Assembly (NCBI GenBank): GCA_001275005.1
Contig: JWZX01003100.1
Location: 1 to 58,520, forward strand
Reading direction: 5' to 3'
DNA from: Chrysochromulina tobinii
Lineage: Eukaryota
DNA: 58,520 nucleotides
Shown here: positions 3,737-45,043 of the stretch, piece after piece
Numbering within the stretch: position 1 is the first letter of the stretch
How the letters are laid out: each line of letters opens with the position of its first letter
Position numbers and translations under genes: made by a program
The notes under the pieces: generated by a model
Told to the model about the DNA's origin: nothing
Databases searched by the model: none
The model's input: only the letters and a program-made list of their open reading frames with translations

Positions 3737-3797
3737 GTAAACGTTAACACGACAGACGCGACAATCGAACCGGTGCTACGGCACTGTTACTGCCCGC
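3737..3797 (-). repeat. ~60-bp dispersed element copy A
   Basis: Reverse complement GCGGGCAGTAACAGTGCCGTAGCACCGGTTCGATTGTCGCGTCTGTCGTGTTAACGTTTAC matches 25585-25640 and 44938-44982. Confidence 0.9.
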
Positions 3798-3940
3798 TCA
3801 GAATACTCCGCGTGCTTCCGTAACTTAGGTTTCCGCATTTCCGGTCTCCCTGCTGACCGAACGCTGACCGACATGGACCGAACGCGACCGAACTGACCGA
3901 ACGCAGTTTCGCAGCCTTTACCATATTGAACTAATTCGTA

Positions 3941-15646: not shown

Positions 15647-17344
15647 CTAACCCACGCCGGCATGATCGCCATCACCGCCCACCTTCGCCAACGCCCACAC
15701 ACTGTCCGACGCTGCGATCTTGCCACTCGAAACGTACGCCGAGTGGTTGACCTCGATGCTCTCTGGCTCGTAGAGGTAATTCACCATCATCGAGCATGAT
15801 TCGCGGACGCCACGGGCCGACGAGTTCGCGCCCCAGTGGATCGATACGAGCGTCGCTCCGTTGCGCAGGTGGAATGCTGCCACCGGATCGAGGGCGCGCT
15901 GGCGGTGCGTCGCCAGGCAGAGATAGCGAGCGCACAGGCAGAGCAGAGCACGGCGCACTGCCACCAGCGCCAACGATGCTGCGTCGCCCTCACAGTCCTC
16001 GTGTACAGGGCCCACTGCCTCAAAGGGGTCGCTCGATACCAGCCCGGCGGCACGAAGCGCCTCGAGCAGCGCGTTGAGGGCCACCGCCTCGTCCGCCGCC
16101 ACCTCGTCCGCGAGCGTCGATGCGCCGTCGTGGGTGCGCCTACCAGCCGCGCCGTCTTGGGCGGCCACGTGGCGCGCGAGCCGCGCCTCGAGCCAGCTGC
16201 GGAAACCGGGCACGGGCGAGAGCGTCACGAATGTGTCGAGTGCGGGCTCCGAGGCAGCGAGCGACGAGAGAACGTGCTTGATGAGAAGCCCACCGATTGG
16301 CACGCCTCGCAGCCCCATGTGAGGGGACGAGATGGTGTAGAAGCACGCGACACGAGGCGTTAAGCCCACCTGTGGGGAAGGGACACGGCGCCGTGGTGAG
16401 CACTTGCATGCTGGGCGTTCGTCGACACGAGGCGTTAAGCCCACCTCGGTCGCGCCGGCTTCGGCTGGTGAGCCTCGGGCGGTCCGTGGACTCAGCGGCA
16501 GTCCACGAGGCAAGACGTCGCGCAGGCGTGTGGGTACATGGGAGACGAGGGCCACCTGCACAAAGACCAGGGGCTCGCCAGGTAGCCGCGGGTGCAGGAA
16601 GGCAAACAGCCGCCGGTGCGGCCCGTCGAGGCGCGTGCGCAGGTCGTCCCAACCGGAAAACGGATGCACGCGCTCGTACGCCATGATCCTCTCGAGCAGG
16701 GCCGCGGGCGTATGTTCCCACGTGAGACGCTCGAGACGCAGCAAACCCATGTCGAACCATATGCTCAGCTGGCGACGTAGCGAAGCGTCCAGCTCGCGCC
16801 ACCGCTCGCGCTCGCCGTCTTCCTCCATGACTGGCACCGAAGCGGCGCCGCCGACTGAAGGCGGCGGCGCCGTTCCTGGCACAGCGGCCACTGCCACGTC
16901 GGCCGGGCTGCGATTTTCAGCCATCGCTGCGAGGAGATCGGCACGCAGCGAGACAAGGAAGCGCAGGCCGTCGGGCTGTTGCGCGAGCCTCTCGATGATG
17001 CGCTCGTGAGCTGGTAGCAGTGCCTCTCGCAGCTCCGACCGCGCCCTAAGAAGCGCCCCCGCCCCACGAGGCTGCTGCTCGTCAAAGCTTGCGAGCACCT
17101 GACAGCATCGACGGACCGCCTCCACGTCGGCGTCCTGACGAGAGAGGATGGAGAGAAACGCGAGGCGGCCTGGCTGCTTGAGTTCCTCGTAGGCCGATGT
17201 GAGCGACGCACACAAGCGCGCCGGCAAGACCTGATCGCCTCGTGGAGCGCGCGCAATTTCGTGCAGAAGGTCACGGAGCCGGCGTTCATCGCGCGGCGGC
17301 ATGCGCCCAGCGGCCCGGAGGAGGGAGCGCAGGCGCATCGCCAT
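15647..17344 (-). CDS. MLYCD: Malonyl-CoA decarboxylase; exons 17344-16445 and 16369-15647
   Basis: GLRFLVSLRADLL, LSIWFDMGLLRLERLTWEHTPAALLERIMAYERVHP, EPLVFVQVAL, FYTISS, LIKHV, FVTLSPVPGF, DPVAAFHLRNGA, MMVNYLY. Arg-rich N-terminus may be a mitochondrial presequence. Confidence 0.93.
   Translation of the reverse strand: MAMRLRSLLRAAGRMPPRDERRLRDLLHEIARAPRGDQVLPARLCASLTSAYEELKQPGRLAFLSILSRQDADVEAVRRCCQVLASFDEQQPRGAGALLRARSELREALLPAHERIIERLAQQPDGLRFLVSLRADLLAAMAENRSPADVAVAAVPGTAPPPSVGGAASVPVMEEDGERERWRELDASLRRQLSIWFDMGLLRLERLTWEHTPAALLERIMAYERVHPFSGWDDLRTRLDGPHRRLFAFLHPRLPGEPLVFVQVALVSHVPTRLRDVLPRGLPLSPRTARGSPAEAGATEVGLTPRVDERPACKCSPRRRVPSPQVGLTPRVACFYTISSPHMGLRGVPIGGLLIKHVLSSLAASEPALDTFVTLSPVPGFRSWLEARLARHVAAQDGAAGRRTHDGASTLADEVAADEAVALNALLEALRAAGLVSSDPFEAVGPVHEDCEGDAASLALVAVRRALLCLCARYLCLATHRQRALDPVAAFHLRNGATLVSIHWGANSSARGVRESCSMMVNYLYEPESIEVNHSAYVSSGKIAASDSVWALAKVGGDGDHAGVG
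16370..16444 (-). other. Putative 75-nt in-frame GT-AG intron bounded by a 24-bp direct repeat
   Basis: AG|GTGGGCTTAACGCCTCGTGTCG occurs at both junctions (+ strand copies 16348-16371 and 16423-16446). 3' end reads TCCCTTCCCCACAG. Removal deletes the duplicated peptide VGLTPRV. Confidence 0.8.
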
Positions 17345-17427
17345 GCGACGCCCCCACCAGGTCGGGTGCGGCCGGGTGGTCGGCGTTGGAACACGAAAAA
17401 AACGCCGAAACTTGCCGAAATCAGTTC

Positions 17428-17510
17428 GTCCACCGATCACGTTCACGTTCACGTTTATTTGCCATCTCTGTCCACCGATCACGTTCACGTTCACGTTAAT
17501 TTGCCATCTC
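17428..17510. repeat. 42-bp-period tandem duplication with internal (CACGTT)n upstream of MLYCD
   Basis: GTCCACCGATCACGTTCACGTTCACGTT(T/A)ATTTGCCATCTC at 17428 and 17470. GTCCACCGATCA recurs at 17570. Confidence 0.9.
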
Positions 17511-18108
17511 GGCAAGACGCACAGCCACAGGTCCCGTGGAGACCCATCGTGGGGGGCGCAAAGAAAAAGGTCCACCGATCAGCCTCACGCGGTCCTCCCA
17601 CGGACCTTCCATACACACCACCACCGTGCGACTCGGGGGGGTGCGACTATCTCGGCATATAGCCATCGTTCGCTCGCGGAGCACGCACAAACATTCTTCG
17701 CGCCGCAGCCCGCACCCGCCATGCCCATGGAGCTTCAAGCTCACCGTAGACATGTCGCAGCTTCTAAACCGGCCCCGTGCGGTACCCGCCATGGTGTTAA
17801 GCGTGTGTGACTGTGTGTTATATCAATATTTCTTAGTGTCAAGTGTCACATCGGTGCCAGCTCACATAACGCACACAAGCGCGGGGACGAGAACGGCGAG
17901 GCAGCGCGCGGTGTCGGCGCAGTCCCGGTCGACGGGTCGGAGTGCCGCTCTGTGCTGGGGCGTAGCGCTTACGATGACGTGTGTGATTTCTAACACACGC
18001 AACGGCACAAACCAGACAAACGGCCCCCGGAGAGGGCCCGAACTACAGGCGAAGCCGAGTTTCCCGGGACATCGTCGCTGCGTCGGCTCCGACAGCTCCG
18101 AGTCCCGC

Positions 18109-19936
18109 TCATCGGGTCGCCGTCTCTTCCTCCAGGAAGTCGGAAAGGACCCGAGTCAAGGCCTTCGCCTGCTCGAGCGCCGCGTTCTTGAGTCGGCAAG
18201 CGTCCTGATAGAGTAACGCGTCGCGCTTCTTGCGCACAGCACTGGCGCCCAATATCGCCTTCAGCGCCGGACGGAGCTCGAGCTTCGCCGTCTTGTTGCT
18301 CGAGGCCACGCCCTCGGGGAGCAGCATGTCGAACTGCGCATAGATGTCCTCCTCGGTCAGGTTGAAAGCGAGCAGTGATGTCTTGGACACGAGGCTCTCT
18401 TCTTCCGAACTTAAGCGCGCTCCAGCAGCGGTTGCTAACTTTTTCGCTCCTTTGAGGCCCTCGTAGAGCGAGAGCATGCACTGCTTGAAAAACTCCTCCC
18501 TGTCGATCCAACCTTCCTCCGTCTTGCCCCTTTTCCACTCCTTGTACAGGTCCTCGAACTCCACGTCACCCACGCGACCCTCGTTTGACTCCGACTTGAA
18601 CTTCCAGCTGAGCTTCTCGTCCAACTTGGCATCCGCTGCGGGAAGCGCGCGGAAGTTGTTCAGCTGGCGGATCGCCTCGTGCGCCGCCTCGTGCGCGGTG
18701 CGCATGATCGGCACGACGCCCTCGAGAACGCCTAATTTGAGCGTGAGCGATTCCATCAGCGCGCTCATCTCCTGCCGCGTTGCATTTTCAGACTCCGACC
18801 TCTCCTGCAGCAGCTTGAGCGCGGCCTTGAGCTCGGCCTCGTCTAAAGTACCGCCGCCGTCGGCGTCCATTTTCTCAAACCACTCATCGAGGGGCCTTGT
18901 TGTCAAATTTGAGGCCTAGGCCCTCGCGCACACCCGTCCGGAACTCAATCTTACTGATCTCCCCCTTCGTCTTTCGGGCCCACTCGCGCACCAGGTCTTT
19001 CACATTGATCCCACGCTGCTGCAGCGTGTCTCCCAGCGCGCGATCTAGAAAGTGCTTCGGTAAGACGGCGCCGCTCGTGATGTCCGCTACGCCCCTCTTG
19101 GCGTTCATTTGCTTTTGCTGCGCTTCCCTGACTTTGCGCCCGATGGTGGTCGCCGCCCGGTTCTTGTGTACGCCCCTGATCATCTTGGCGAACTCTTCGA
19201 AGTCAATCTCGCCGCTCGCGTCATCGTCGGTTGCACGCATCATGGCGTCGATTTCCTCGCTGGTCAGCAACTTGCCGGCACCCGTGAGGGCGACTTGCAG
19301 CTCGTTCTTATCGATCGTACCACCATGGTCTAGGTCGATCTTGTCAAAAATATCTCGAAGCTTGTCTTCGCTCGCCAACGCGGCTGCCAAACTCGAGCCC
19401 ATCCGCAGCAAGCCCTCTTCCGCGGTGGTCCTCCAAAGCTTGATCGCCTTTTCGTTCCCCATCTTTGGTTTGCTGGGCGGCGCCTCCTCGGGTGGCAACT
19501 CCGGTGCGCTCGAAGCGCCCCACCTCCCTGTCTCTCCGAGCTCGCGATGGCGCTTCTGCGCCACGACGAGCTCCTCGCGAAAACGGCTGATGAGCGCCTC
19601 GACGGGGGCCAAGATGTCGGGCAGCGGTGCCAACTCTGCAAGATCCACCGATGATTCCAAGGACACCTCTGCCGGCGGCTTAAAGACGGGCGCTGCTGCC
19701 TTAGCCTTAGGCTTCGCCTTAGCCTTCTTCTCCTCATCTAGCAAATCCAGCTTCTCTGCAGTCGACATGGTCTTCTTCCGCGAAGAGCTGAGCTTCTCCT
19801 GGGCGCCTTGTAAGCCCGTGTTCGGCGTCTCCGGCCGGTCTGTCTTCTTACGAAAAGACTGATTTCCTGGACGAGAAGACTGATCACCGGAGACTTGCGA
19901 GCCCTTCGCCCCAATCGGCTGCCTCTTGGGCGCCAT
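18109..19936 (-). CDS. Multi-EF-hand calcium-binding protein; one gene with an apparent +1 frameshift at the G4 run 18891-18894
   Basis: EF loops DLDHGGTIDKNE, DDDASGEIDFEE and DADGGGTLDEAE. Removing one base joins ...KFDNKA to LDEWFEKMDADGGG. Confidence 0.8.
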
Positions 19937-21348
19937 TGCCCGCCCGCCCTTCACCAAATGGAATCGGCTACAAAGCGGAGACACGCCCAAAGCGCAAATT
20001 GGAAGTGCGAGGCACAAACACCCACACGAGGTCTCGCGTCGCGGAAACTTTGACAGATATATGAAACGACCATGGAAAAACGACACACGCATCCAAAGTA
20101 TCCATTCTCCCTATGGCACGAGAAATGCTCCCGTGCCCAATGGAGACGCGAGCGACGGCCAGCACCGCCAGCCGCGTACATTCATATCCCGCGCATCAGC
20201 GCGCAGACAGAAAGACAGGGCGCGGAGAGCAACAGTTCAACAGAGGAGGTCTGATCCATTTCCATGTGTGGGCAATTACTGAATTGTGTGTGGGCTTAGG
20301 ATCTTGAGCCCCTCCTCATGTTTACACCATCGTAGCTCTCCAGCATGCGTATGGCTGCGAGACTGAAGGCTCAGTGCGAGTGTCTAGGTACTGTGTGTAT
20401 TATGTGTGTAGTGACGTGCATGTGGCAGTTTCTAATTTAACGCGGACTTCATGAAATGGACTTGGACACGCAGGACGCAGCACAAGATTTGGCTCATGCT
20501 TTTAATCTTGGCTCGGGCTCATCTTTCGGAAATGAATTTCCCAGAGACGCCGCTCCGATGTGCGACCGGACCGACCTGGGGCTGTTCCAATGGTCTGTTC
20601 GTGCAAGTTGATAAGGGGTCCAGTGGGTGTCCCCGAGCTATAGTGGTAACCGCATCCGTATGTACGCCGGTCCGGTGTCTTGGGTGTCGATTTATAAACC
20701 TTAGAAAAATGCCAAGAAAGAAAGAAGAAAAAAGGGCTCACACGCGAGTCATGAAGACGCAGTTGAAAGTTAGATGAAAGAGGAACACGATTACGGTTGC
20801 GTGTGGTTTGTTGAGTACCCTCGTCGGGAATCCTGTCGCTTCTGGTGAACGTATTACACCGCAGCTTCTCTCATCGATTAAGTCCGTCTGTCTGTCTGTG
20901 AGGCGTCACGCTCGTGAACTCGCGTGGTGATCTCCGAATCACCCAGCTCCTCGGCTTCGGAGCCATCGGAGGACGGAACGGCGCTATGTGAGAAATTTGA
21001 TTGCTCCGCAAAGCTGTAGCTGAAGGAGGAGCCAGCAAGCCCGACGTCAAACGTGAGATCCCCGTCGGAGTTCTTGAACGGCACCTCAACGTCGGGCGCC
21101 GCCCATCGACGGCGCGCGCGCTGCGCTCCGGCGAAGGGAAGAAGCAAGGCGGCCGAAGCACGTTCCTGCACCAAGACAAGATGCAAGAACGCCGGCCCCC
21201 CGCGAACGCCGAAACAATCATTCAAACAGGCGCGAAAAAGCAGAATCGAAAAAAGGGGAAATCTGGGCGGCGACTGTCGAACCAAAACCATTCACCGTTG
21301 GCTGTCGTGTGAATGAATCCGCGGAAGGGCGAGTCCCCCGCCCGCCCA

Positions 21349-23496
21349 TCAAGACTCACACGGGCAGTAAACTTGCTGCAACACCGCGTCCACCGCACCA
21401 ACGAGCGCCTCGTCGCCGTGGAGCCACTCGCATCTAACCAGGTGCGTCGGCCCGGCGCTCGTCATGGCGCTCGATGCCGCGCCGGTGAGCCTCAGCGAGC
21501 GCAGCTGTATGCTTGGTGGTGTCTCCAATGGGTGCCATTGCAGCTCAGCCGCTTGGCACGGGAGGCTTCCTATGTGCTCGCACAGGAGCTCGTGTACCGT
21601 ATTTAGAGGGCAAGAGAGGCGCAGCTCGAGGCGAAAGCGCATTCGGTGCGGTTGCAGCCCAGTCACAGTATGCAACTCGTCCTGCGAGACGAGCTGCAGC
21701 TGAGGTGGCCTTGAAGCCGAGGGTGAGCGATCCAATGGCTGGGGCACCGCCGCAGCGGCTGAGCTCACAGGCAGCACAAGAATGCCCCTCACACGCTTAT
21801 CAGTGTGAGGGAGGGGCATGGCGCTGAAAGACATGGCGCTGAGAGGCATGGCGCTGGGGAGTGTGGCAACCTCTCGTGTGGCCTCTCTCGTGGCCAAGCC
21901 CCTCTCAGAGTTCGCATGCGCTGGTCGCCGGCTGTTGGGCCTGCCGTCGAGATCGGCCATCAACGTCGTCGAGGGTGCGCCGGCCCGCTTCCGTGTACGC
22001 TGGCCTGCAATCCCAACAGCACCTACAGTGTCGCTCACCGCGCCGGCCGCCACGCTGGCATCTGGCTCAGCTCGCGCAAGGAGCCGCGAGGATATGTGCA
22101 CGGCGATGCGCTGCTCCGCAGGCAGCCGGAGGCACTCACCATTCTGAGGGTCGTGGCACGGCACTCCAAAGAGCTTTGCGACCCGAACCTTCAAGTACGC
22201 CATCTTCGCCTGCTCTCCGTGAACCAGCACCACGGCCGCTGGCTGCAGTGTGCTAATGAGCCCTAGGATGCCCTTGGCATCAGCGTGCGCCGAAAAGGAG
22301 ATCTGCTTGACGGTGCACGCGACGGTCAGGCGGCGCGTCGAGGGCTCCTCGCCGGCCGGCGCGTCCACGACCACCTCCTTGGCGCCATGGAGCAGCGTGT
22401 GCCCGAGGGTGCCGCGCACACAAAAAGTAGGGAAGAGGACGAGGTTCTTCGCGTCTCCCGCCCAGTGTCGAAACGCTTCTAGTGCCATGCCGGCGGTCAT
22501 CATGCCCGAGGTGGCGAAGAGGACGCACGGCCCGGGCGCCGACAGAAGCGCGCGCTCAAAGGGGCGCACGTGCCGAAATGCGAACGGATTGTACCCGGGC
22601 GCTCGCTCGCTGTCCTTGACACACGTTGACGTCCAGCTGGCGTAGAGCTTGTAGAAGAGAGTCGCGTGCTGTGCCATGCCAGCGGCGACGTAGATGGGGA
22701 CCGAGAGACCGAGACGGTCCCAGTACATCTCGAGCAGCATGAGCAGCTCCTGCGCGCGCCCGACTGCAAACGAAGGGATGAGCACCTTGCCTCCCACGCC
22801 CACGGCGGTATGCACCAGTTGCAGCAGGTCCGCCTCTCGGCAGCGCTTCGACTCGCGGATAGAGGTCCCGTAGGTGGACTCGGTGATGAGTACGTGCGGC
22901 TGGAGTCGACCGACCTGCGCGGCGCCGAGATGCCGGTCCGCCACCGTGTTGAAGTCGCCCGTGTACATCACACGATGGCCCAGGCACTCTGCGGAGACCA
23001 TCACGGCGCCCACGACGTGCCCGGCGTAGTGGGTGCACAAGCGCAGCTCGTCGTCTACGTGAATCGTCTCGCCGAGCGTGACGAATCTCACCTTGCTCAG
23101 GCATGCGTCCACATCCCTAGCACTGTACGATGGGCCGCCGCCCTTGCGCGCGGATGAGAGCACGTTCAGAGAGTCTTTGAGCAGGATCGCCGCCATCGCT
23201 GCCGTCGGCCGTGTCATGTAGATGGGGCCATCGTAGCCAAGCTTTTCGGTGAGGAAGGGCAAGGCGCCGCAGTGATCGAGGTGGAAGTGCGTGATGACCA
23301 CGCAATCGATCGCGCTGGTGAGCGAGCCCCTGTGCGCACCCAGCTGCTGCCAATCTGGGAAGCAACGGTGGTCATGGTAGCCCATGTGCATGCCGCAGTC
23401 GAACATGACGCGCCGCCCGCCAAGCGTGACCACCACGCAGCTGCGACCTATGTCCTGGCCAGCGCCGAGCACGTGCACCTTGATGCTCGTGCCCAT
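21349..23496 (-). CDS. INTS11: Integrator subunit 11 / CPSF73-II (metallo-beta-lactamase, beta-CASP RNA endonuclease)
   Basis: LGAGQDIGRSC, FDCGMHMGY, THFHLDHCGALP, YAGHVVGA, YTGDFN, DRHLGAA, LITESTYG, GGKVLIPSFAVGRAQEL, SFSAHADAKGI, LVHGE. GQD and GMHMG favour INTS11 over CPSF73. Confidence 0.9.
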   Translation of the reverse strand: MGTSIKVHVLGAGQDIGRSCVVVTLGGRRVMFDCGMHMGYHDHRCFPDWQQLGAHRGSLTSAIDCVVITHFHLDHCGALPFLTEKLGYDGPIYMTRPTAAMAAILLKDSLNVLSSARKGGGPSYSARDVDACLSKVRFVTLGETIHVDDELRLCTHYAGHVVGAVMVSAECLGHRVMYTGDFNTVADRHLGAAQVGRLQPHVLITESTYGTSIRESKRCREADLLQLVHTAVGVGGKVLIPSFAVGRAQELLMLLEMYWDRLGLSVPIYVAAGMAQHATLFYKLYASWTSTCVKDSERAPGYNPFAFRHVRPFERALLSAPGPCVLFATSGMMTAGMALEAFRHWAGDAKNLVLFPTFCVRGTLGHTLLHGAKEVVVDAPAGEEPSTRRLTVACTVKQISFSAHADAKGILGLISTLQPAAVVLVHGEQAKMAYLKVRVAKLFGVPCHDPQNGECLRLPAEQRIAVHISSRLLARAEPDASVAAGAVSDTVGAVGIAGQRTRKRAGAPSTTLMADLDGRPNSRRPAHANSERGLATREATREVATLPSAMPLSAMSFSAMPLPHTDKRVRGILVLPVSSAAAAVPQPLDRSPSASRPPQLQLVSQDELHTVTGLQPHRMRFRLELRLSCPLNTVHELLCEHIGSLPCQAAELQWHPLETPPSIQLRSLRLTGAASSAMTSAGPTHLVRCEWLHGDEALVGAVDAVLQQVYCPCES

Positions 23497-23886
23497 TTTT
23501 CTCCTGGGCGCACAGAGGCGAAGCGAGTTTCGTCGGTGTGCTCGTTTTCGCGAGGCCGCCCCAAACTTGTGATTCGCATCGCTACAGGCCGGACTTCCAA
23601 AGTCGGAGCACGTGAGCCTAGCGGAGACGTCCGAACGCGTCACGTAGTTCACAGTCCGGTGTCGTTTCTGTAACGTACAATTGTACGGTAGGCGTGTTTA
23701 GGATTCAAGCAGGCCCTACTAGTACTATAGACCTTCTTCGTTCCCTCGCCGTGCGCTCCGACCGCACGCGCAACGACGGGAGAGGCCTGGTTTCTGGATA
23801 CATTCAGTATCTTTTGCGGAATTTGCCACACACTCCGACGAAGGCCGCCGACGCCGCCGCCGACGCCGCCGCCGCGGCCGCCGCGA

Positions 23887-25386
23887 ATGTCGATTTCGAC
23901 GCTCATCGCACTTGCCGTGTTCGCAGCCGACACGCTCTACGACCGCCTCGGCCTCGCGCGCTCCGCCGACCATCGCGCGATCAGAAAAGCTTGGCACCTT
24001 CTCGCACTCAAGGAGCACCCAGACAAGGTCAACGGCGATGCAGCAGAAAAGGAGGCGGCAGCAGAGCGCTTCAAGCGTGCGGCCGAGGCGTACGAGGTCC
24101 TCTCAGATGCTGCGCTGCGCGAGCGCTACGATGCCACCGGCGAGATCCCTGACGACAAGGCGAAAGCGGAGGCGTCCGCAAAGAGCGCGGGTGGTGCAGC
24201 TGGCGAGGAGGACGAGTATGGTTTCGACGGCCAGCAGCAGCAGGGCTCTCGTCCGCACCAGCGCTCCTACGGATGGGGCGGGCGCTTCGACCAATTCGAG
24301 GTCAACCTCGCGCAGAGCCGTGCGCGTCGCGTGCGGACCCTCGAGGGCCTGCGCAAGCTGCTGCAGCCGAGCGACGGTGCCCGGCGTTTCGGCCTCATCG
24401 GCTTCTATCGGAGCGGCGACGACGCCATGCTGAAGCGGCAGCTGCGCTTCCCGTACCCGTTCGCCGGCTGGTCGCTCGCGGCCCAGGGCGACGGCTTCTG
24501 GTGGGAGGACGCCATCCAGACAGTGCTCGTGAGCGTGGGCGAATTGGGTGGCAGCCAGGCCGGTGGTCTTCTCTCTCACTTTGGGCTCTCTCATGACGCG
24601 AGGCTGCCGGCGGTCGCGTGGGTACGTCGTGACGAGGCCATGAGCTTTGAGCTCACCTCGCGCCTCTCCTTTGATGATGACTTCGTGAGCTGGGTCTACG
24701 ATCGTCTCGGCGCCACTGTGCGGGTGCTCAATCGCGATCATCGGCCTGCTACGGTGTGGTGGCTAGACGGCACCTCGGCAAAGCAGCAGGGCGTGGTACC
24801 GCCCGGTGGCTCCTTCGAGCGCTCTTCCTTTTTGAGCCACCGCTGGTACTGCTGGCCCGAGTCCACCCAGGGCAGCTTGCTCACTGAGGACGCCTCGCTG
24901 GGCGAGATCACGCTAACCCGTGTAGGGGAGGTGCACGAGCTCGTTCTCGAGCCCAAATGCGTCGACGCCAACGGCCACTGCAAGCAGTGGCGCGATCAGG
25001 GCGAGTGCGAGCGCAACCCGAGCTTCATGAGTGATGCGTGCCCGCGCTCATGCCGCGGCCCACGCTCGTGCAAGGTGTGGGGTTGGCTCTACCAGGCCGG
25101 CCTCGGCCCATTGCACAAGGAGCTCGCGTGCTGGGCGGACGCCAGCTGCGCGCTAGAGAGCCAGCTGCCGAGTGGAGGGCACGCGATGAGCGACCCGAGC
25201 GAGCTTAGAAGGCTCCCTCAGCTCGCCGCCAACTGGCTGCGAGGCGTGGCCGCGCAGATGCGAGACGGAGCGCTCTTGCAGACGGTCGAGCGACTGCTTT
25301 CGGGTGCCCCACCGCCCGTACCGCTGCCCACGAGGAAGGTGCCCTCGCCGCCGCCGCCGCCGCTGCCGCCGCGTGATGAGCTGTGA
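23887..25386 (+). CDS. ER-luminal DnaJ protein with VHL-beta-like segment and ShKT domain, C-terminal RDEL
   Basis: Signal peptide, J domain with HPD and AYEVLSD...R..YD, ShKT CVDANGHCKQWRDQGECERNPSFMSDACPRSC, ends RDEL. Divergent from INTS11 across about 390 bp. Confidence 0.88.
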   Translation: MSISTLIALAVFAADTLYDRLGLARSADHRAIRKAWHLLALKEHPDKVNGDAAEKEAAAERFKRAAEAYEVLSDAALRERYDATGEIPDDKAKAEASAKSAGGAAGEEDEYGFDGQQQQGSRPHQRSYGWGGRFDQFEVNLAQSRARRVRTLEGLRKLLQPSDGARRFGLIGFYRSGDDAMLKRQLRFPYPFAGWSLAAQGDGFWWEDAIQTVLVSVGELGGSQAGGLLSHFGLSHDARLPAVAWVRRDEAMSFELTSRLSFDDDFVSWVYDRLGATVRVLNRDHRPATVWWLDGTSAKQQGVVPPGGSFERSSFLSHRWYCWPESTQGSLLTEDASLGEITLTRVGEVHELVLEPKCVDANGHCKQWRDQGECERNPSFMSDACPRSCRGPRSCKVWGWLYQAGLGPLHKELACWADASCALESQLPSGGHAMSDPSELRRLPQLAANWLRGVAAQMRDGALLQTVERLLSGAPPPVPLPTRKVPSPPPPPLPPRDEL

Positions 25387-25584
25387 GAAGATGGGAGTGT
25401 GCGCTCCTAAGTAAGTAAGTAAGTAAAACATGCCAGCACGGGCAGCGCACACACACTCCTAATGGGTACCGGGACGGCGCCCCAAACCACTTTCGATGAA
25501 ACCAAATCCCCTAGGTCGCCTTTGTCTTAGGAGCGAACCCCAAAGGGGAGATCGCGGAGAAATTCCATACATTTATTCACACTC

Positions 25585-25640
25585 GCGGGCAGTAACAGTG
25601 CCGTCGCACCGGCTGTCGCGTCTGTCGTGTTTACGTTCAC
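25585..25640 (+). repeat. ~60-bp dispersed element copy B, 32 nt upstream of the FHA-SNF2 ATG
   Basis: GCGGGCAGTAACAGTGCCGTCGCACCGGCTGTCGCGTCTGTCGTGTTTACGTTCAC. Confidence 0.9.
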
Positions 25641-25672
25641 TCATCACGGCGCTTGGCATCGGCGATTTCCTT

Positions 25673-28600
25673 ATGAGGTGCAGACTCGTCCCGTCGCTCG
25701 GCGGCCATGAGACCGTCATACTCGCACCCTCTGAGGACGTCATCATCGGCCGCAGCGTTCGCCCGGTGGATTGCCGGTCGACCTTCTACGCGAGGATCGA
25801 CAATCCCAAGGTCTCGAAGCAGCATGCGCACATCGCCCTCTCTGTGGATGGCACCGTGCTCACGCTCACGGACAAATCTACCAACGGCACCTTCATCGAC
25901 GGCGCGAAGGCGCCTCCTGGGAACCCGATTCAGCTAGTGAGCGGCTCCGTGCTCTCCTTCACGGCCAATAAGCTCCTTCACGCCATGCTGCCATCCTTCA
26001 GTGTCATGCTCGACCGCCAGGAGGCTGCGCCAGTGTCAGCGTCTGCGTCGACGCCGGCAGTGGAAGTGGCAGCGGAAGTGGAGGCATCGGCGTCAGAGCC
26101 GGCGTTCACCGAGCAATCGGCGTCGGCGCACGCGTCGGCGCACGCGTCGGCGTCGGCGCACGCGTCGGCGCCGGCGCCCGAGCCCGCAGCCCGCAAGCAG
26201 AACGTATGGAGTGTCTTCGACGACGACGAGGATGATAAGCCGTCGCCCTCACCGCCGCCACAGCCGCCGACTGCTGCCTCGAGCGGTGCCGGCGTACCAG
26301 TGCCGGCTGCGGAGGCGCCGCCTGGCGATGCGGGTGGAGCGGAGAGCGATGCGGGTGGCTCCGAAAGCGACGTCTCTCTCGCATACGATGATGGGCAGCA
26401 GGAGGCGGCGGCGGAGGCCGAGGAGGCGGCGGCGGCGGAGGGTGCATCAGGTGAGCCACCACACCCACCAGGCTCCCCTGCGAACCGCGCCGATTTCGAC
26501 AGCGAGCCACCGAGTCCGGTGCTCGACATCGCGTCCGAGTGCTACGACCTAACGGCGGACTCACCGGTCGCCGACCGGCGCGCCGACGCGTCCGCTGGGC
26601 GCCTGCTCCTCCTCGGCGGCGTCGGCCGCGATTCGGCCAGCGGCATGCTTCATCGTGCCGCCTCCGCTGCCCGCTCGTAACGAGGAGGACGCCTTTCTCG
26701 AAGCGGCTGCCGCATGTGAGCAGCCGGCAGCGCGCCGCGGCGGCGGCAGAGGCGGTCAAGGCCAAAGCAACCCTAGAGGCCGCCGCAGAGGCGGCGGAGG
26801 CGGCGGAGTTGCGCGCGCGCTTCGGCCCACCACGTGCCCCGCCGCGCCCCACTGCACCCCTCCCGGTCGTCGCCTCTGCGTCCGGCGCGCAGCAGCAGCA
26901 GCCGCAACAGCAGCAGCAGCAGCCATGTTTGGGCGATGATGTGCAACGAGCCCCGAGGCACAAGCCCACGGCCATGCCAGCCGGGGACCCGACCCTCGAC
27001 GCCATGCTCGCCAACCGTCGCGGGCGCAGCGCTCTCGGAGCGGGGGCCGGTGGCGCCCTCGCTCCCTCTGCGAGCATGCCCGACGATGATGAAGCGCATT
27101 CGGCGCCGGACGTCAAGCGCCGTCGTGGGCGGTTCACCTGAGGTGATCGACCTCGACTCGATCTCGCCGATGAAAGCCGATGACGCGTCGTCACTCATCG
27201 GCAGCTTTGCCTATTCGGGTGCACATACCGCAGGCCCCTCCTCATCCGCCGCCGCCGCCGCCGCGCCTGAGCCCATCGAGTGGTTGACGAAGCGCCGAAA
27301 TCAAACCGAAGAGGAGCGCGCGGCGATCAGCCGGACGGCTAAGCTGGCGCTTGGTAAGACAAGGAGACGCGCCGGCGGTGGAGGTCGAGGTGGAGGCGGA
27401 GGTGGAGGCGGCGGCACGCGATCAGCGGGCAAGCGGGCGGGCGGGCGCGGCGGCAGCAGCGGGCGCGGCGGCGCGGCAGCTCGGAAGCGTCGACGTTCCG
27501 TTTGGGACAGCGAGGACGAGGAGGAGGAGGAGGAGGAGGAGGAGGCGGAGGAGAGTGATGAGAGCTGGAACAGCGAGGCGGAGGCGGCGGCAGAGGCAGC
27601 CGAGGCGGCCGAGATCGAGGACGAGATCGAGGACGACGAGATCGAGGTCAGCGAGATTGAGGTGTGGGGAGCTCGTGAGGCGTCTCGAGCCGTGCCCAAC
27701 ACGGCGGCGGCAGGTGCGGCAGCAGCTGGGCGGGGAGGCCGCCGACTCATCAAGACTGCGGATGTGCGCAAGGGGCGGGTGGCGACTGGCAGGGCACAGG
27801 CGGCGCCCAGCGGTGCCAATCCGAGAAGTAACGGTCGAAGTAACGGTCGAAGTAACGGTCGTCGGAAGGAGAGAGCGATCGTCATTGATAGCGACGAGGA
27901 GGAGGAGAAGGACGAGGACGAGGACGAGGACGACGAGGAGGACGAGGAGGACGAGGAGGGAATGGATGACGGCGACGGCGAGGAGGAGGTCGGCTTCGAG
28001 GACGGTGAGCGTGGCCGCCCGCCCGAGACCGAGGCGGAGGCACGCGCCGTCGTGAGCCGCAGCCTCTCCGCTTGCGAGGCTGAGTCTCGCCGGATTTCGA
28101 GCGCGCTCGCCGCCATTGCCGAGGACGGGGTTGGCGCCCAGGGCGGCGCATTGCATCTCACCAAGGTGGGCGACGGTCAGCCGTTGCGCGTGCAGCCGAC
28201 GAGCCTCGGCGGGAGCGCGCGGATGGTGCTCAAGGAGTATCAGTTGGTGGGTCTGAATTGGCTTTGGCTCATGTGGCGTATGCGCGCGGGCGGCATCCTC
28301 GCTGATGAGATGGGCCTCGGCAAGACCATCCAGGTGATTGCCCTCATCTGCGCCATCAAGGAGGCGCAATCAGCCCAATCTGGCTTCGGCGGGGGGCACG
28401 ACGACGACGCCGATGATGGCGCTCGGGACGGCGCCGACGATGGCGCGCGCCGCTGCCACTTGGTCGTAGCGCCCGCCTCCACGCTCGACAATTGGCTGCG
28501 AGAGTTTGGGTTGTGGGCTCCGTCACTCGTGGTGGCCAAGTATCACGGGTCGCAGGCGCTCCGCACGCAGATGCAGCGAGATCTCGATGACTCGACGTTC

Positions 28601-30482
28601 GACGTGCTCGTACTCCCGTACACGTACTTTGAGGGCGAAGGCGCCGCGTCTCAGTACGACCGTCGATGGCTGCGCCGGCGCCGCTGGGGCCTGGGCGTCT
28701 TTGACGAAGCACACGCCCTCAAGACGTCCGGCTCTGCGCGGTACCATCGCCTCTCGCAACTCACGATCGCTCACCGGCTGCTCCTCAGCGGAACACCCGT
28801 CCAGAACAACCTGCACGAGCTGCTCACACTCCTCTCGTTCATGTTGCCGCGCGCCTTCCCGCCGCGCCTCGCCGACGCCTTCGCAGTGCTCGACAAGGCG
28901 CGGCGCGACCGCTCATCTGCCCAAGGCGGCGCTCGCGGCGGAGGCAGAGGCGGCGGCGGGGGCGGCGGCGGCGGCGGTCGGCAGGCCGCGCGAGACCCAG
29001 ACGCAGTCGCGATCGCCAAGGCGCGTCGGCTGCTCGCCCCCTTCGTGCTACGTCGTCGTAAATCCGAGGTCGTCACCCACCTGCTCACATCGCTGATGAC
29101 CTCTGATGGCCTCTGAGTGCTTCTGAGGACCCCTTGATTGCCTCCCTGTTCAGGTTCTCACCCAATTGGTGCCCAAGCAAGAGAAGGAATGCCTCTTGAC
29201 GATGAGTGCCGCCCAGCAGACCCTTTACATTGAGCGCCTTCGCCTTGCCTCGATCGCCTCGACGGCCCTGCACCCCTCGGCTGCTGCAGCCGGGGCGCCG
29301 AGACGATCGAACCGTGCCGTGCCGTCGCAGACGGCGGCGTCGCACTTTGCGGAATTGCGCAAGGCGGCCAACCACCCCCTCCTGCTGCGCTCGCACTACA
29401 CGGACGCGATGATTGAGCAGATTGCCCGCGCGGCGCATGCCGCCCACGTCTACGGCGAGCAAGCGTCATTAGCTCAAGTGCGCGCCGAGCTGTCGAGTGC
29501 GTCCGACTTCAGGCTGCATACGGTGTGCGCGGAGCTCGCGGAGAGCAGCCAAGTGAGGCTGGGCGGTTTGCAGGGGCTCATGCTGCCCAACGAGGTCATA
29601 GTCGACTCGGCCAAGATGAGGGAGCTTCGCCGGCTCCTGCCCGAGCTCAAGGAAGGCGGCCACCGCTGCCTCATCTTCTCACAGGTGCGCGCCTTCTCCC
29701 CGGATTGCGATGGAGTGCGATGGAGTGCGACCGAGTGCGCTCCCCCCACAGTCACTCGAGATACTCGACCTGCTCGAGCACTTGCTCGGATGACCCTCCT
29801 GATTGCCTCCCTCATCTCCCACAGTCACTCGAGATGCTCGACCTGCTCGAGCACTTGCTCTGATGACCCTCCTGATTGCCTCCCTCATCTCCCACAGTCA
29901 CTCGAGATGCTCGACCTGCTCGAGCACTTGCTCGGCCCGAGTGGGCTCAGGCTCCACTACTGCCGCCTCGATGGCGGCACGCCGGTGGCGGAACGCCAGG
30001 TGAAGATTGATAAGTTCCAGGCGGCCGACTCGAAGATCTTCGCCTTCCTGCTCTCCACCCGCGCAGGCGGCCAGGGCATCAACCTGACCGCCGCCGACAC
30101 GGTCATCCTGCACGACCTCGACTGGAATCCTCAGCTCGACCGGCAAGCCGTCGACCGCGCACATCGGCTCGGCCAGCGGCGTGCAGTCACCGTGTACAAG
30201 CTCGTGACAGCGAGCACTGTGGAGGAATCGATCGTCCAGCTGCAGCACCGAAAGCGCATCCTGGGCAACGCCGTGCTCGATGAGGCGGCCCCCTCGCCCA
30301 CTGGTGGTGGCAGTGCTGCGGCCAACGCGGACGCGGCGCTGGGCGTGGAGAGCGACGATGAGGTACAGCTCTTAGACGACCAGTACGACGCCGAACGCGG
30401 GCGCGACAGCGGCGGGAGCGCCAAGATCAACTCGAGCACGATGAACCTCCTCCTGGTGCACGCTCTCGGCTTGGCCAAGTGA
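25673..30482 (+). CDS. FHA domain + Fun30/SMARCAD1/ETL1-type SNF2 chromatin-remodelling ATPase (about 1500 aa after two introns and three apparent +1 frameshifts)
   Basis: FHA motifs IIGRS, VSKQHA, DKSTNGTFIDG. SNF2 motifs ILADEMGLGKTIQ, FDEAH, LSGTPVQNN, LRKAANHP, LIFSQ, LLSTRAGGQGINLTAADTVILHDLDWNPQLDRQAVDRAHRLGQ. Introns 29069-29153 and 29685-29897. The FHA-ATPase join is inferred. Confidence 0.75.
29069..29153 (+). other. 85-nt phase-0 GT-AG intron
   Basis: Joins RRRKSE|VLTQLVPK in frame. Contains TGATGACCTCTGATGGCCTCTGA and ends TGATTGCCTCCCTGTTCAG. Confidence 0.9.
29685..29897 (+). other. 213-nt in-frame GT-AG intron containing a 73-bp-period triplication of acceptor plus exon start
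   Basis: Removal restores the SNF2 motif LIFSQ|SLEMLDLLEHLL. CCCACAG|TCACTCGAGAT(A/G)CTCGACCTGCTCGAGCACTTGCTC with exon copies starting at 29752, 29825 and 29898. Confidence 0.85.
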
Positions 30483-30930
30483 GACTCGTGTAAACGTACC
30501 GCCTAACCCTACTGTGCACGCACGCATGTTCGTGTTGCATGATTTAGGACTGAAGCACCGTGCAAACGGACTGACCTGACTTACATGTACTGACTTACAT
30601 GGGTCAACAAGAACACTTGACAAAGTAACTCTTCTGTACTCCCGCTCAAGCGAGCGCCATTGACCACGCCAGTGGCATTTTTTGGCGCTCGCTTGGGTGT
30701 GAATGATGTCTCAGCACTGACGTCCTGTGTTGTGAAACAATGGTAAAGAGGAGCGCCTTAGAGTGGGTACTGTGTTGTCGTGTCGTCCTTAGTGACTTGT
30801 GTAAAGTGTCTGCCGCTGCGAAAAGTGAGGCGGCTGCGCGCGCCGCGCGCGCGCGGCCTAACTGTTCACGTTGTCTGAAAGATTCAAGTTTTTCTCAAGA
30901 TCGAATCTCTCAAAACACGAAACCACAAAC

Positions 30931-33905
30931 ATGTCAACTGGGCAGCTGGCAACGAATGAGGGAACGTGGACGTACCTGCTGCAGGTTGCGGCGGGCTGCT
31001 TCGCGAACGCTGCCTCAGCGCAGGATGCGGCGGCAGGAATGCTACGTGAGCTGGGAATCGGAACGCGGACGCACCTCCTTTTCCAGGTCGCGACGGGCTG
31101 CCTCACGTCCTCGGTGGTAGGGCTCCTCTTCTTCGGGCACGCTCTCGCCGATGTGCCACTCGAGCGCATGGGCACCAACACGGGCGCCGGCTACAACACC
31201 CGCGTCCTCGGATACGACGGAGCGCGCGGCGAGTTCTCCATGTTTGCAACGCTGTGCATCTTTGGACCGTGGCTGCTGGTCGTGCCCTGCCTGTCTGAAC
31301 AAGGCGCCCTCGCCGTGCTGTCCACTCTTGCGCTTCTCGGCCTCTGGTACAGGTTCCGAATACATGCTAGCCATCCGGGCGGCCCGCGTGCCCATCGCAT
31401 CCTGCGTGAGCCGCAGTGGGCCAACAAGACGTCGCATCTCGATGCCGGCTGGCGGTGCGAGGTGGCGGAGGCGTCGCACATGCACACGCACACGTCGCTG
31501 CCCATCGGGCAGACCCTCACAGGCGAGGCCGCCGGCCGTCAGATTTGGCACAAGGTGCAGCTCAACCCGCTGCAGCGCGGGCTCTCGTTTGGGGCCGAGC
31601 ATAAGGAGAAGTGCGGCTTCAACCCGAGCGTCAACCCAAACCCGGAGGACGAGATCTGGCGCGCACAGCGCGTGCAGGCCTGGACGGCACGCGGGAACAA
31701 GGTGCCCGACGCGCGCTGGGTGCCCAAGACGACGCTCGATGCGCTGCGCAAGGCGCTGTCGTGGTACGAGGTGCTGCAGAGTGACGACGGGCACTGGGCG
31801 GGAGACTACGGCGGACCGCACTTCCTGATGCCCGGGCTGATCGTGGTCTGGTACGTGACAGGCCGGCTAGACACCTTTCTCGACGGCAATCAGCGTGCAG
31901 CCATGGCCCACTACCTTCGCGTGCACCAGCAGCTTGACGGCGGCTGGGGGATGCACATCGAATCGCCCTCGACGATGTTCGGCTCGGTCATGTGCTACGT
32001 GGCGCTCCGGCTGCTGGGTACGCTGGCTGAGGACCCGGCGATGCAGCGCGGATGCGAGTTCATTCGCTCGTACGGCGGCGCGCTGTACACCGGCTCGTGG
32101 GCCAAGTTCTACTTGTGCCTTCTCGGAGTGATGGATTGGAAGGGGCACAACGTCATCCCTCCGGAGATGTGGCTGCTCCCACGCTGGATGCCTTTCCATC
32201 CTGGGCGGCTCTGGTGCCACTGCCGCATGGTCTACCTGCCCATGTGCTACCTGTACGGCCACAAGTTCGTCTACGCCGACGCCGAGAGCGATCCGCTCAT
32301 TGCGGCGCTACGCGCAGAGCTCTACCCTGTGCCGTATGAGTCGATACGCTGGGAAGGCACCGCCGACCACGTGGCCGAGATCGACAACTACTCGCCGATG
32401 CACCCGGTGATGCACGTGGCCAACGCGGTGCTGCGCCTGTGGGAATCCTGGGGCGGGTCGCTGATGCGCGCGCTGCGTCGTCGTGGGCTCGCGTTCGCTC
32501 TCGACTACATGGCTGCAGAGGACAATCAGACGAACTACGTGTGCATCGGGCCCGTCAACAAGGTGTTCTGCCTCTTGACGGCCTCTTGATGGCCTCTTGA
32601 TGGCCTCTTGATGGCCTCTTGATGGCCTCTTGATGGCCTCTTGATTGTCAGAGCTCACCACGATGCCCCACGCTCCCCGTCAACAAGGTGCTCAACATGC
32701 TCTCCGCGTACCACGCGGCGGGGCAGCGTACGGACACGCCTTCGTTCACGAAGCACCTGCTGCGCGTGCCCGACTACCTGTGGATCTCGGAAGACGGGAT
32801 GAAGATGCAGGGGTACAACGGGTCACAGGGCTGGGATGCCTCGTTTGCGATGCAAGCGCTCGCCGAAGCAGATCTCGTCGATGAGTTCGCGTCGATGTGC
32901 AAGAAGGCGTACTCGTATCTCGAGCGCACCCAGATCCTCTGCTCGGCCGACTCGCGTGCCTCGCCTGCCCTCGCCTACGAAACGGCCGAGCAGCGCCAAA
33001 AGTATTTCAGGCACGTAAGCGAGGGCGGGTGGCCCTTTTCAACGGCCGCCCACGGATGGCCAATCTCGGACTGCACCGCCGAAGGCCTGAAGGCCGTCCT
33101 TCTGCTCCGCGGCCATGCATGCATCCAAGCACACTGTGCTCCCATATCGGACGTGCGCCTGTACAAGGCCCTGGAGGTGCTGCTCACGCTGCAAAACGTC
33201 GACGGTGGCTGGGCCACGTACGAAAACAACCGCGGCTACAGCTGGTTCGAGTGGCTCAACCCCTCAGAGGTCTTCGGCGACATCATGATCGACTACTCAT
33301 ACGTCGAATGCTCGATGGCGTCGCTCTCCGCCGTGTACATGTTCCATCAGCAGTTCCCTAATCACCGCACTGCTGAGGTGAAGGCCGCCATCCGGGCAGG
33401 ACGCAGGTTCATCAAGTCCATTCAACGCAAGGACGGCTCGTGGTATGGCTCGTGGGGATGCTGCTTCACGTACGGCACCTGGTTTGGGGTCGAGGGGCTC
33501 GTCCTCTCCGGCGAATCTCCCGACTCGAGCTCGCTTGCCAAGGCCTGCAAATTTCTGCTGAGCAAGCAGAATGCCAATGGTGGCTGGGGCGAGGACTTCA
33601 CCTCTTGTTACGACAAGGCGTATGCGGCCAAGGGCGCCGAGCGCTACGGCAAGGGCGGCTCGGGAGTGGTCAACACGGCGTGGGCGCTGCTGGCACTCAT
33701 GGCGGCGGGTACGAAGGACACGGCGGCGGTGCGCCGTGGTATTGAGTATCTGATGGCTGAGCAGCGCGAGAATGGCGACTGGAAGCAAGAGGGCATCACT
33801 GGCGTCTTCAACCGCGCGTGCGGCATCTCGTACACGCAATACCGCAATATCTTCCCCATGTGGGCCCTCGCAAGGTATGCGCGCAGCTACGAGGGCAAGG
33901 CGTGA
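30931..33905 (+). CDS. CAS1: Cycloartenol synthase (oxidosqualene cyclase); exons 30931-32562 and 32688-33905
   Basis: DGHWAGDYGGPHFLMPG, DGGWGMHIE, LWCHCRMVYLPM, GPVNK|VLNM, MQGYNGSQ, HGWPISDCTAE, QRKDGSWYGSWG and QW repeats. The Tyr/His/Ile at the product-specificity positions are the cycloartenol-type residues. Confidence 0.95.
32563..32687 (+). other. 125-nt GT-AG intron bounded by a 15-bp direct repeat, containing an 11-bp microsatellite x7
   Basis: CCCGTCAACAAG|GTG at 32551-32565 and 32676-32690. (GCCTCTTGATG)7-like array at 32570-32646. Confidence 0.9.
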
Positions 33906-34540
33906 TGGCCGAGGACCGGCGGCGCGAGGGCCGCAGCCGGTGCCAGATGAACCAAGATCAATGCAACAAGGGAGCGAGAGGGTATGGGGGCGCGAGCAAA
34001 CGAGCCGCGCCGGGAGGAGCGCGCGGGGCGAGAGGCCTACGAGGCGCGAGGCGGCCGTTGCATCGGTGGCCGCGCGCATACGGTGTTCAGACAGCATCCC
34101 CCCATTCGAGGTCTGAGCTCTCTCCAGGCTCTCTCTTGCGCGTAGAGACTGCGATACCGTGGTTGTGCAGCATGAAAGCATGAAGGTGACCCGTAGCGTA
34201 GTGTGGTGGCGAGGGGTCGCATCGGCGCCGGACGGAGAGCTTCGGTTACGGAGAGAAAAGAGGCCACGAGTCGCGGTCGAGTTTTTCTGCGATAAGGGTC
34301 AGTTGAATCGACACACAAGGTACCGACCAGCCACTACCACACGAAACACGAGTTTGCAAGCACCACGAGCCCATTCACACCACATGTCGGGCTCCGAGGG
34401 GCGTGCCTCGCCGCGTGCTTCTGCTTGGGTGCACACGCGGAGCTTGGCGGTATCCTTTGGCATCTACCAGCGCATCGGTGGCGAGCGCTCGGCGAGTTCC
34501 GGGCCCAACTCGGGTTTCCCACGATTGCATTCCTCGGCGC

Positions 34541-44937: not shown

Positions 44938-44982
44938 GCACCGGGTGTCGCATGGTGTCGCGTCTGTCGTGTTAACGTTCAC
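44938..44982 (+). repeat. Dispersed element copy C (partial), 61 nt upstream of the CRAL-TRIO ATG
   Basis: GCACCGG...TGTCGCGTCTGTCGTGTTAACGTTCAC. Confidence 0.85.
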
Positions 44983-45043
44983 ACATTCACATTCATCAGT
45001 CGATCATCAGGGATTGCAATTGTATGTACGCATCTTTCTGGAA

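What the first reader, a model, noticed from the sequence alone, without database searches (positions are those of the whole stretch)
16348..32690. Introns bounded by duplicated exon sequence with shared filler motifs: candidate ongoing intron-gain system
Seen: four of the six introns I can define have junction duplications. MLYCD 16444-16370 has an exact 24 bp (AG|GT plus downstream exon). CAS 32563-32687 has an exact 15 bp. SNF2 29069-29153 has a decayed copy (11/15 identities). SNF2 29685-29897 has acceptor plus exon start triplicated. The non-duplicated fillers share motifs across unrelated genes: GCTCACCACG (MLYCD, CAS), TGATGGCCTCT (CAS, SNF2 intron 1), TGATTGCCTCCCT (both SNF2 introns) and CCCACAG ends (MLYCD, SNF2 intron 2). 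These contain branch-point-like YTGAT/CTCAC words. The two TAF12 introns show no such duplication. Established: tandem duplication of AG|GT and Introner-type elements are proposed intron-gain routes. Inference: a process duplicates a variable length of exon at AG|GT sites and inserts a stereotyped branch-point/acceptor cassette. Variable repeat length and no visible terminal inverted repeats differ from a classical DNA-transposon footprint. I cannot tell whether this is already described for this lineage.
Basis: partly seen in the sequence, partly recalled or inferred. Interest (0 to 1): 0.85.

Follow-up and report, generated by a model that had tools for sequence, protein, structure and literature searches.

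The report
Half-copied introns spreading in an alga
In the alga Chrysochromulina, many introns consist of a 10-50 base copy of the neighbouring exon joined to half of another intron, and some are present in one strain but absent in a near-identical one, so they are likely being created today by a copy-and-repair process that may need no transposon enzyme.

Summary
Real and genome-wide. All four repeats and the shared motifs are present. RNA contigs skip all four segments (MLYCD only in a sister strain). The contig matches Chrysochromulina tobinii. A metagenome scan for the MLYCD filler core gave 134 loci. In 125 of 165 non-redundant acceptors the intron begins with an 8-50 nt copy of its own downstream exon (permuted control 1.9%). 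A second, unrelated filler family does the same in 34 of 69 (control 5.5%). A mirror class keeps a shared donor half and ends in a copy of the upstream exon (CAS). Empty alleles exist for MLYCD, for an 81-nt intron (L074 vs L011), and for two introns in a paralogue pair. Fillers are copied from other introns, often nearby ones, and can carry pieces of the parent's exon copy. There are no inverted repeats, hairpins or fixed repeat length. Best reading: break-repair template switching copies half an intron, and selection keeps the exactly spliced products; the enzyme and template type are not shown. Published Introner screens require both ends to match and would miss these. No description found in nine literature searches, and this scan had not reported it before.

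The parts
16370..16444 (-). MLYCD (malonyl-CoA decarboxylase) intron, 75 nt, class 1: exon copy plus imported acceptor half; polymorphic among strains
16423..16444 (-). 22-nt exact copy of the downstream exon start; supplies the GT donor
16370..16422 (-). Imported family-A filler: 11-nt spacer, core, pyrimidine tract, CCCACAG acceptor; no other family-A core within 5 mismatches in the window, so its source is elsewhere
   Evidence: DNA depth about 12,000 vs about 47 at 16382-16384
16390..16411 (-). Family-A core GCATGCAAGTGCTCACCACGGC; its CTCAC is the inferred branch point, 22-47 nt from the AG across 96 copies
   Evidence: no lariat data
16348..16369 (-). Downstream exon start (the original of the duplicated stretch)
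29069..29153 (+). SNF2 (SMARCAD1-like) intron 1, 85 nt, class 1 with decayed exon copy (11/15) and family-B filler (TGATGRCC repeats, TGATTGCCTCCC, CAG)
29685..29897 (+). SNF2 intron 2, 213 nt, removed whole: a third-type module (29685-29751) followed by two 73-nt units of exon copy plus family-B acceptor
29752..29824 (+). 73-nt unit 1 (exon start beginning TC, then family-B acceptor)
29825..29897 (+). 73-nt unit 2; only one unit in some alleles
32563..32687 (+). CAS (oxidosqualene cyclase) intron, 125 nt, class 2: imported donor side, 11-nt array (32570-32645), degenerate family-A core, then copy of the upstream exon end
32676..32687 (+). 12-nt exact copy of the upstream exon end; supplies the AG acceptor

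Best explanation
These spliceosomal introns are built from a 10-50 nt duplication of the target exon plus half of another intron, and they likely arise when DNA-repair synthesis at a break switches template to an existing intron, copies its branch-point half and rejoins the gene a little way back. Class 1: the strand copied from the downstream side likely switches at a donor-like GT onto a parent intron's AG|GT junction, copies acceptor, pyrimidine tract and branch point, and rejoins 10-50 nt further into the exon through 2-5 nt of microhomology; the exon copy then serves as donor. Class 2 is the mirror image: the donor half is imported and the upstream exon's AG serves as acceptor. Selection would keep only products that splice out exactly. 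Each new class-1 intron has an acceptor followed by a donor-like exon start, so it would be a ready template for the next event, a chain reaction needing no encoded transposase. Shown: the anatomy, two filler families, empty alleles, parent-to-daughter transfer with parental flank, a bias to nearby parents, and removal from RNA of the window introns. Inferred: the break, the polymerase (Pol theta-like, from recalled knowledge), DNA rather than RNA template, and the role of selection.
For: Anatomy: 125 of 165 and 34 of 69; duplication median 27 nt, 10th-90th percentile 15.5-36; intron nt 7-20 are unrelated between loci (pairwise identity 0.28) while the last 8 nt are shared (0.89). Mirror class among 26 donor-half hits. 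Target looks like a donor: GT 92 of 98, G at +5 64 of 98, G at -1 74 of 98. Gain: L074 has an 81-nt intron with a 33/33 duplication; L011 (about 98% identical, other introns retained) and L039 have the exact empty site. MLYCD: of 11 listed cluster members covering the site, 6 carry the insert and 5 lack it, on contigs up to 37,691 and 11,500 nt, two with E instead of V at the donor codon. Paralogue L057 lacks two introns of L027. Copying: the new L074 filler is identical to the next intron of the same gene about 500 nt downstream in L011; L046 and L063 daughters carry 6-7 nt of the parent's exon copy, joined by 5-nt microhomologies, with parents 1.7-2.5 kb upstream. Shared spacers in 11 of 84 same-strand pairs within 4 kb (7 of 33 loci) vs 150 of 17,632 between loci. 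Cores inside existing introns occur with duplications but without the AG end (e.g. L013, L022), so exact ends are not intrinsic. No TIR (3.99 vs 4.02 matches of 12), no unusual folding (z -1.8 to 0.75 for 6 sequences), no Rfam match in 5 loci.
Against: No enzyme, break or intermediate was observed. Related filler pairs share no more exon-start microhomology than unrelated pairs (28 of 54 vs 2081 of 4699 at 3 nt or more, p=0.16; weak test, since most pairs are not true parent and daughter). The local signal is modest in a stricter set (3 of 26 same-strand pairs within 6 kb) and the MLYCD filler has no source in the window. Orientation is almost always preserved (79:0 within 400 nt; 50:1 against family B within 150 nt), which fits an RNA template equally well. 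Random repair plus selection would need a high event rate to give roughly a thousand exact introns. Direction of the L074/L011 difference is not polarised by an outgroup. None of the metagenome loci was tested for splicing, and all were chosen by the motif.
Confidence: 0.5

Rival explanations
1. Spliceosome-guided route: an excised lariat's 3' end is partly reverse-spliced into a donor-like site in RNA or R-loop DNA (or a mis-spliced intron circle provides the AG|GT joint), and repair copies the RNA and fills in the staggered ends.
For: Exact acceptor-to-GT joint, donor-like targets, strict sense orientation and same-strand local bias, repeated insertion at existing junctions (L114, SNF2 intron 2). 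R-loop reverse splicing (PMC4540971, passages) and AG-GT intron circles (PMC11146597, passages) are published ideas.
Against: Published model predicts a clean full-length insertion without duplication. A same-transcript circle predicts only downstream parents for class 1, but parents lie upstream in L046 and L063. It does not simply give the mirror class 2 or the imprecise inserts inside introns.
Confidence: 0.25
2. Non-autonomous elements moved by a HUH (Replitron or Helitron-type) transposase, with one exact end, one fuzzy end and a variable target duplication.
For: Replitron-1 in Chlamydomonas inserts at a dinucleotide, carries variable parental flank at one end and makes variable-length duplications (PMC10288648 section 9 read); that paper reports a Replitron-like protein at one locus of C. 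tobinii.
Against: No terminal direct repeats or hairpin; two unrelated families and both mirror classes behave alike; only 25-60 nt are moved; the exact end differs between classes; that paper calls the signature non-canonical.
Confidence: 0.1
3. Target-primed reverse transcription by a LINE enzyme acting on intron-containing RNA (SINE-like).
For: Exact 3' end, variable 5' end and variable duplication are the usual TPRT footprint (recalled); non-LTR Introners exist (PMC12130899, passage).
Against: No poly(A) or simple-repeat tail at the 3' end; duplications of 15-36 nt are long; class 2 has the exact end on the 5' side.
Confidence: 0.07
4. No gain: old introns are remodelled when spliced cDNA partly overwrites one half (abortive intron loss), and empty alleles are completed losses.
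For: Explains both mirror classes with exact joints. CAS site is shared with distant homologues P0296 and P0299; SNF2 intron 2 is clearly remodelled.
Against: Fillers come from other introns, not from the site itself; sister alleles show no intron rather than an unconverted one; exon starts are GT or GC in 141 of 165 acceptors, far more than expected for ordinary old introns.
Confidence: 0.06
5. Assembly artefact or chance repeats.
For: The window has a few single-base errors; no long reads were available.
Against: Independent assemblies and RNA agree; many copies are diverged (mean identity 0.96); controls are 20-40 times lower.
Confidence: 0.02

Closest known systems
Introners, incl. marine Chrysochromulina sp. 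families (Gozashti et al. 2022, PMC9860276; passages and supplement rows seen)
   Same: Repeated intron sequence in many genes; one splice site carried, the other co-opted from the target duplication; no TIR in the Chrysochromulina example.
   Different: Their example has a fixed 4-bp TSD and whole-intron similarity; here the duplication is 8-50 nt, only half the intron is shared, either half can be imported, and parent flank is carried along.
Double-strand-break repair introns of Daphnia pulex (PMC4202315; passages seen)
   Same: Polymorphic new introns with a direct repeat of the adjacent exon, read as staggered-break repair.
   Different: Daphnia repeats are 4-12 bp in 33 of 90 introns and the filler source is mostly unknown; here repeats are longer and the filler is traceable to other introns.
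Replitron-1 insertion signature (Craig 2023, PMC10288648; section 9 read)
   Same: One exact end at a dinucleotide, parental flank at the other end, variable-length duplication, copy-and-paste.
   Different: Replitrons are 0.9-3.6 kb with terminal direct repeats and a transposase; nothing of that was found here.
Tandem duplication of an AG|GT-containing exon stretch (Rogers model, recalled; PMC11782384 abstract only)
   Same: Exon sequence duplicated across the intron ends.
   Different: Foreign filler is present and supplies one splice site; the repeat usually starts at GT or ends at AG rather than spanning both.
Fungal same-gene intron duplications and introner-like elements (PMC3609843; passages seen)
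   Same: Introns copied within a gene or between genes without transposon hallmarks.
   Different: Those are near-identical whole introns, rare within genes (at most 16 per species), and ILEs fold stably; these are half copies with long duplications and no stable fold.

Membership tests
Introner (Gozashti definition) | Similarity between introns reaches near both splice boundaries | tested here: not met
   Pairwise identity 0.28 at nt 7-20 vs 0.89 in the last 8 nt, 96 class-1 introns; criterion read
Introner (Gozashti definition) | Multi-copy intron sequence in unrelated genes | tested here: met
   229 non-redundant core hits; about 700 exact-core sites per genome by re-sampling, rough
Introner (Gozashti definition) | Creates an intron on insertion (empty site in relatives) | tested here: met
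   L074 vs L011/L039, MLYCD alleles, L027 vs L057; direction inferred
TIR DNA transposon / MITE | Terminal inverted repeats | tested here: not met
   3.99 vs 4.02 of 12
TIR DNA transposon / MITE | Fixed-length target duplication | tested here: not met
   8-50 nt continuum
Replitron / Helitron | One exact end, parental flank at the other, variable duplication (Replitron-1) | tested here: met
Replitron / Helitron | Terminal direct repeats or subterminal hairpin | tested here: not met
   No significant fold in 6 sequences; ends unrelated
Replitron / Helitron | Autonomous partner with HUH transposase and matching ends | not testable with these tools
   No genome held
SINE / non-LTR retrotransposition | Exact 3' end with A-rich or simple-repeat tail, truncated 5' end only | tested here: not met
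   3' end is the acceptor with no tail; class 2 has the exact end 5'
AG|GT tandem duplication | Both splice sites lie in the duplicated exon stretch and no foreign filler | tested here: not met
   Upstream AG in 57 of 125; repeat extends 0-1 nt past GT in 56 of 96; foreign filler present
Break-repair intron gain (Daphnia type) | Direct repeat of adjacent exon flanking an inserted filler, polymorphic | tested here: met
Break-repair intron gain (Daphnia type) | Dependence on an end-joining pathway | not testable with these tools
   Needs mutants or mutation-accumulation lines
U2 spliceosomal intron | GT/GC-AG ends removed from RNA | tested here: met
   CAS, SNF2 introns 1 and 2; MLYCD only in a sister strain, so inconclusive for that one

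The most novel reading that the evidence does not exclude
A transposase-free, self-propagating intron factory: host repair (or the spliceosome itself) copies half of an existing intron into exon sites that look like splice sites, each product becomes a template for the next, and parent-daughter chains can be read from carried-over flanks. It would account for on the order of a thousand or more introns in a culturable alga, may extend to other haptophytes (P0299), and is invisible to current Introner screens.
Probability: 0.45. Interest if true: 0.92.

Novelty: new variant of a known kind. Interest (0 to 1): 0.82.

Why it matters
How new spliceosomal introns arise, and where their sequence comes from, is a long-standing open question. 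Here both halves of the new intron are traceable: one to the target exon, the other to a specific parent intron. Segregating empty and filled alleles in a cultured alga make the mechanism directly testable by population genomics, mutation accumulation and repair-gene knock-down. It also shows a blind spot in Introner surveys that need both intron ends to match, so intron gain by copying may be undercounted.

Tried and rejected
No whole genome was held, so genome-wide numbers come from 134 motif-selected metagenome loci (129 with DNA, 647 kb) and are biased to family A and class 1. Viral collection: 1 hit for the core, 0 for the donor half. Prokaryote genomes: 2 hits to a 19-mer, about the chance expectation, not followed. 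Automatic four-way classification of hits was noisy and is used only for examples. Extra microhomology at the exact junction: not significant. Duplication identity vs core mismatches showed no age trend. Same-transcript intron-circle model: rejected as sole route because parents lie upstream as well as downstream and MLYCD has no local source. Hairpin, TIR and Rfam tests negative. A suspected EF-hand intron near 18916-18996 is not skipped in the X16 contig. Literature searches found no description; the library lacks most subscription papers. The 2022 Introner supplement was cut when stored and I saw 32 of 214 Chrysochromulina places plus the single 'tobin' row; the 2025 supplements were not examined, so a family call for C. 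tobinii there is not excluded.
Full report
Source. The window is 58,520 nt, about 63% GC and intron-poor. A named NCBI protein of Chrysochromulina tobinii on a 58,520-nt contig equals the spliced SNF2 product, so the window is taken to be that haptophyte. Pfam confirms MLYCD, SNF2/helicase C and squalene cyclase.

Observation. All repeats and motifs are at the stated places. RNA contigs skip the CAS segment (125 nt, 2 of 3 RNA runs), SNF2 intron 2 (213 nt, 4 of 4), SNF2 intron 1 (85 nt, 2 of 4) and MLYCD (75 nt, 1 of 4). The MLYCD skip comes from a diverged strain that may lack the intron; window-identical runs only stop at 16423. The insert is in frame, stop-free and lies in a variable loop, so its splicing in this strain is inferred. 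An independent DNA run covers both MLYCD copies and the filler without differences, and shows about 12,000-fold summed depth on the filler against about 47 elsewhere, marking it as a dispersed repeat.

Genome-wide anatomy. A scan for the 22-nt MLYCD filler core returned 134 loci (129 with DNA). Allowing 3 mismatches gave 251 hits, 229 non-redundant; 165 had a pyrimidine-rich AG and enough flank, and the other 64 were left out of this count. In 125 of 165 the sequence after the AG is copied just upstream of the core (permuted exons 1.9%, maximum 4.3%; own sequence 60 nt further on, 7 of 158). Copies are 8-50 nt, mean identity 0.96, 52 perfect. They start at GT or GC (115 of 125), and the two bases before are AG in only 57. 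In a stricter set, intron length has median 79 nt with no phase bias, the inferred branch A lies 22-47 nt from the end, the ends are not inverted repeats, and only the 3' half is shared between loci. Family B (the SNF2 filler), found in the same loci, gives 34 of 69 against 5.5%. A mirror class carries a shared donor half and ends in a copy of the upstream exon (examples among 26 hits); CAS is of this kind. Re-sampling among assemblies suggests about 700 exact-core sites per genome (7 repeats among 99 seeds), and flanks hold about 90 near-matches per Mb (25 in 276 kb), against one in this window; 'about a thousand to a few thousand' is a rough inference.

Gain. L074 has an 81-nt class-1 intron with a 33/33 duplication; L011, about 98% identical and retaining its other introns, has the exact single-copy site, as does L039. 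For MLYCD, 6 of 11 listed cluster members that cover the site read through the insert and 5 lack it, on contigs up to 37.7 kb, which I infer to be DNA; filled and empty alleles share haplotypes. More diverged relatives are empty (short contigs, possibly transcripts) or carry a filler-free 27-nt exon duplication with the same right edge, which I cannot explain. Paralogue L057 lacks two introns of L027. Against universal youth: the CAS intron is in 15 of 15 listed close members (of 58), and two distant homologues break at the same site while others on 9.6-15.9 kb contigs do not. SNF2 intron 2 is shared with the sister lineage and varies inside; a 69%-identical homologue on a 14-kb contig is uninterrupted at both SNF2 sites. 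The process thus both creates and remodels introns.

Source of the filler. The new L074 filler equals the 3' 48 nt of the next intron in the same gene. In L046 and L063 the daughter's spacer contains part of the parent's own exon copy, joined by 5-nt microhomologies, with the parent 1.7-2.5 kb upstream. Shared spacers occur in 11 of 84 nearby same-strand pairs, 0 of 12 distant same-strand pairs, 2 of 38 opposite-strand pairs and 150 of 17,632 between-locus pairs; a stricter set gave 3 of 26. MLYCD has no source in the window, so copying also works at a distance. Cores inside existing introns show duplications with ragged ends.

Mechanism. The best fit is repair synthesis with a template switch: either broken end can invade a parent junction, which gives the two mirror classes, and rejoining behind the start gives the duplication. 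Exactness would come from register at the parent's splice junction plus selection. This is inferred; the enzyme and template type are untested, and the test for extra microhomology at the exact junction was negative. A spliceosome-guided RNA route fits the orientation and target bias; a HUH-type mobiliser fits the footprint described for Replitron-1 but lacks its termini.

Known systems. Gozashti 2022 (passages; supplement rows) reports Introners in marine Chrysochromulina MAGs with 4-bp TSDs and lists C. tobinii among genomes screened; 'tobin' occurs nowhere else in the held, truncated file. Its method needs similarity near both boundaries, which class-1 introns fail. Gozashti 2025 main text does not mention the genus (supplements unseen). 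The genome paper mentions introns once. Daphnia gains have 4-12 bp repeats and unknown fillers. Fungal same-gene duplications are rare whole copies. Nine searches found no description of this anatomy. The scan's earlier findings hold no look-alike and only splice-junction minisatellites in other genomes.

Verdict. A real, abundant and still polymorphic mode of intron formation; a new variant between break-repair gain and Introners, with a fair chance of being a distinct transposase-free mechanism. Interest 0.82.

Noticed in passing
window 53605-53681 and 53352-53489 (-): The two TAF12-like introns show no exon duplication and no family A or B filler; a useful non-member control.
   Followed up: partly
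window 4186-4260: 18-bp direct repeat spaced 57 nt, containing CAG|GC, around GTAAC-type repeats; possible GC-AG intron on + with both sites from the duplication.
   Followed up: no
window 18891, 26597, 27131: Single extra bases absent from other runs; likely assembly errors that split the EF-hand ORF and the FHA-SNF2 region.
   Followed up: partly
MLYCD site, proteins P0007 and P0136-P0149: A sister lineage has one or two extra in-frame 27-nt exon copies with no filler and the same right edge as the window's duplication: precursor, derivative or hotspot.
   Followed up: partly
CAS site, proteins P0296 and P0299: Distant homologues run into intron-like sequence at the same codon; P0299's read-through begins like a decayed copy of the downstream exon, hinting at the same process in another lineage.
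   Followed up: no
window about 3740-3800, 25570-25645, 44960-44990: Shared intergenic repeat near gene starts; the 25005-25671 bin has summed DNA depth 6468 against about 50. Bins 20336-21002 and 33676-34342 are also very deep. Possible small dispersed elements.
   Followed up: no
window 50725-50902 and 51118-51295: Near-exact in-frame duplication at 393-nt spacing in an MBD-domain ORF; the window is generally rich in short tandem duplications (146 rows).
   Followed up: no
L023 vs L049; L047 vs L100: Further strain differences: an extra 94-nt exon-plus-filler unit and a 42-nt acceptor-containing unit.
   Followed up: partly
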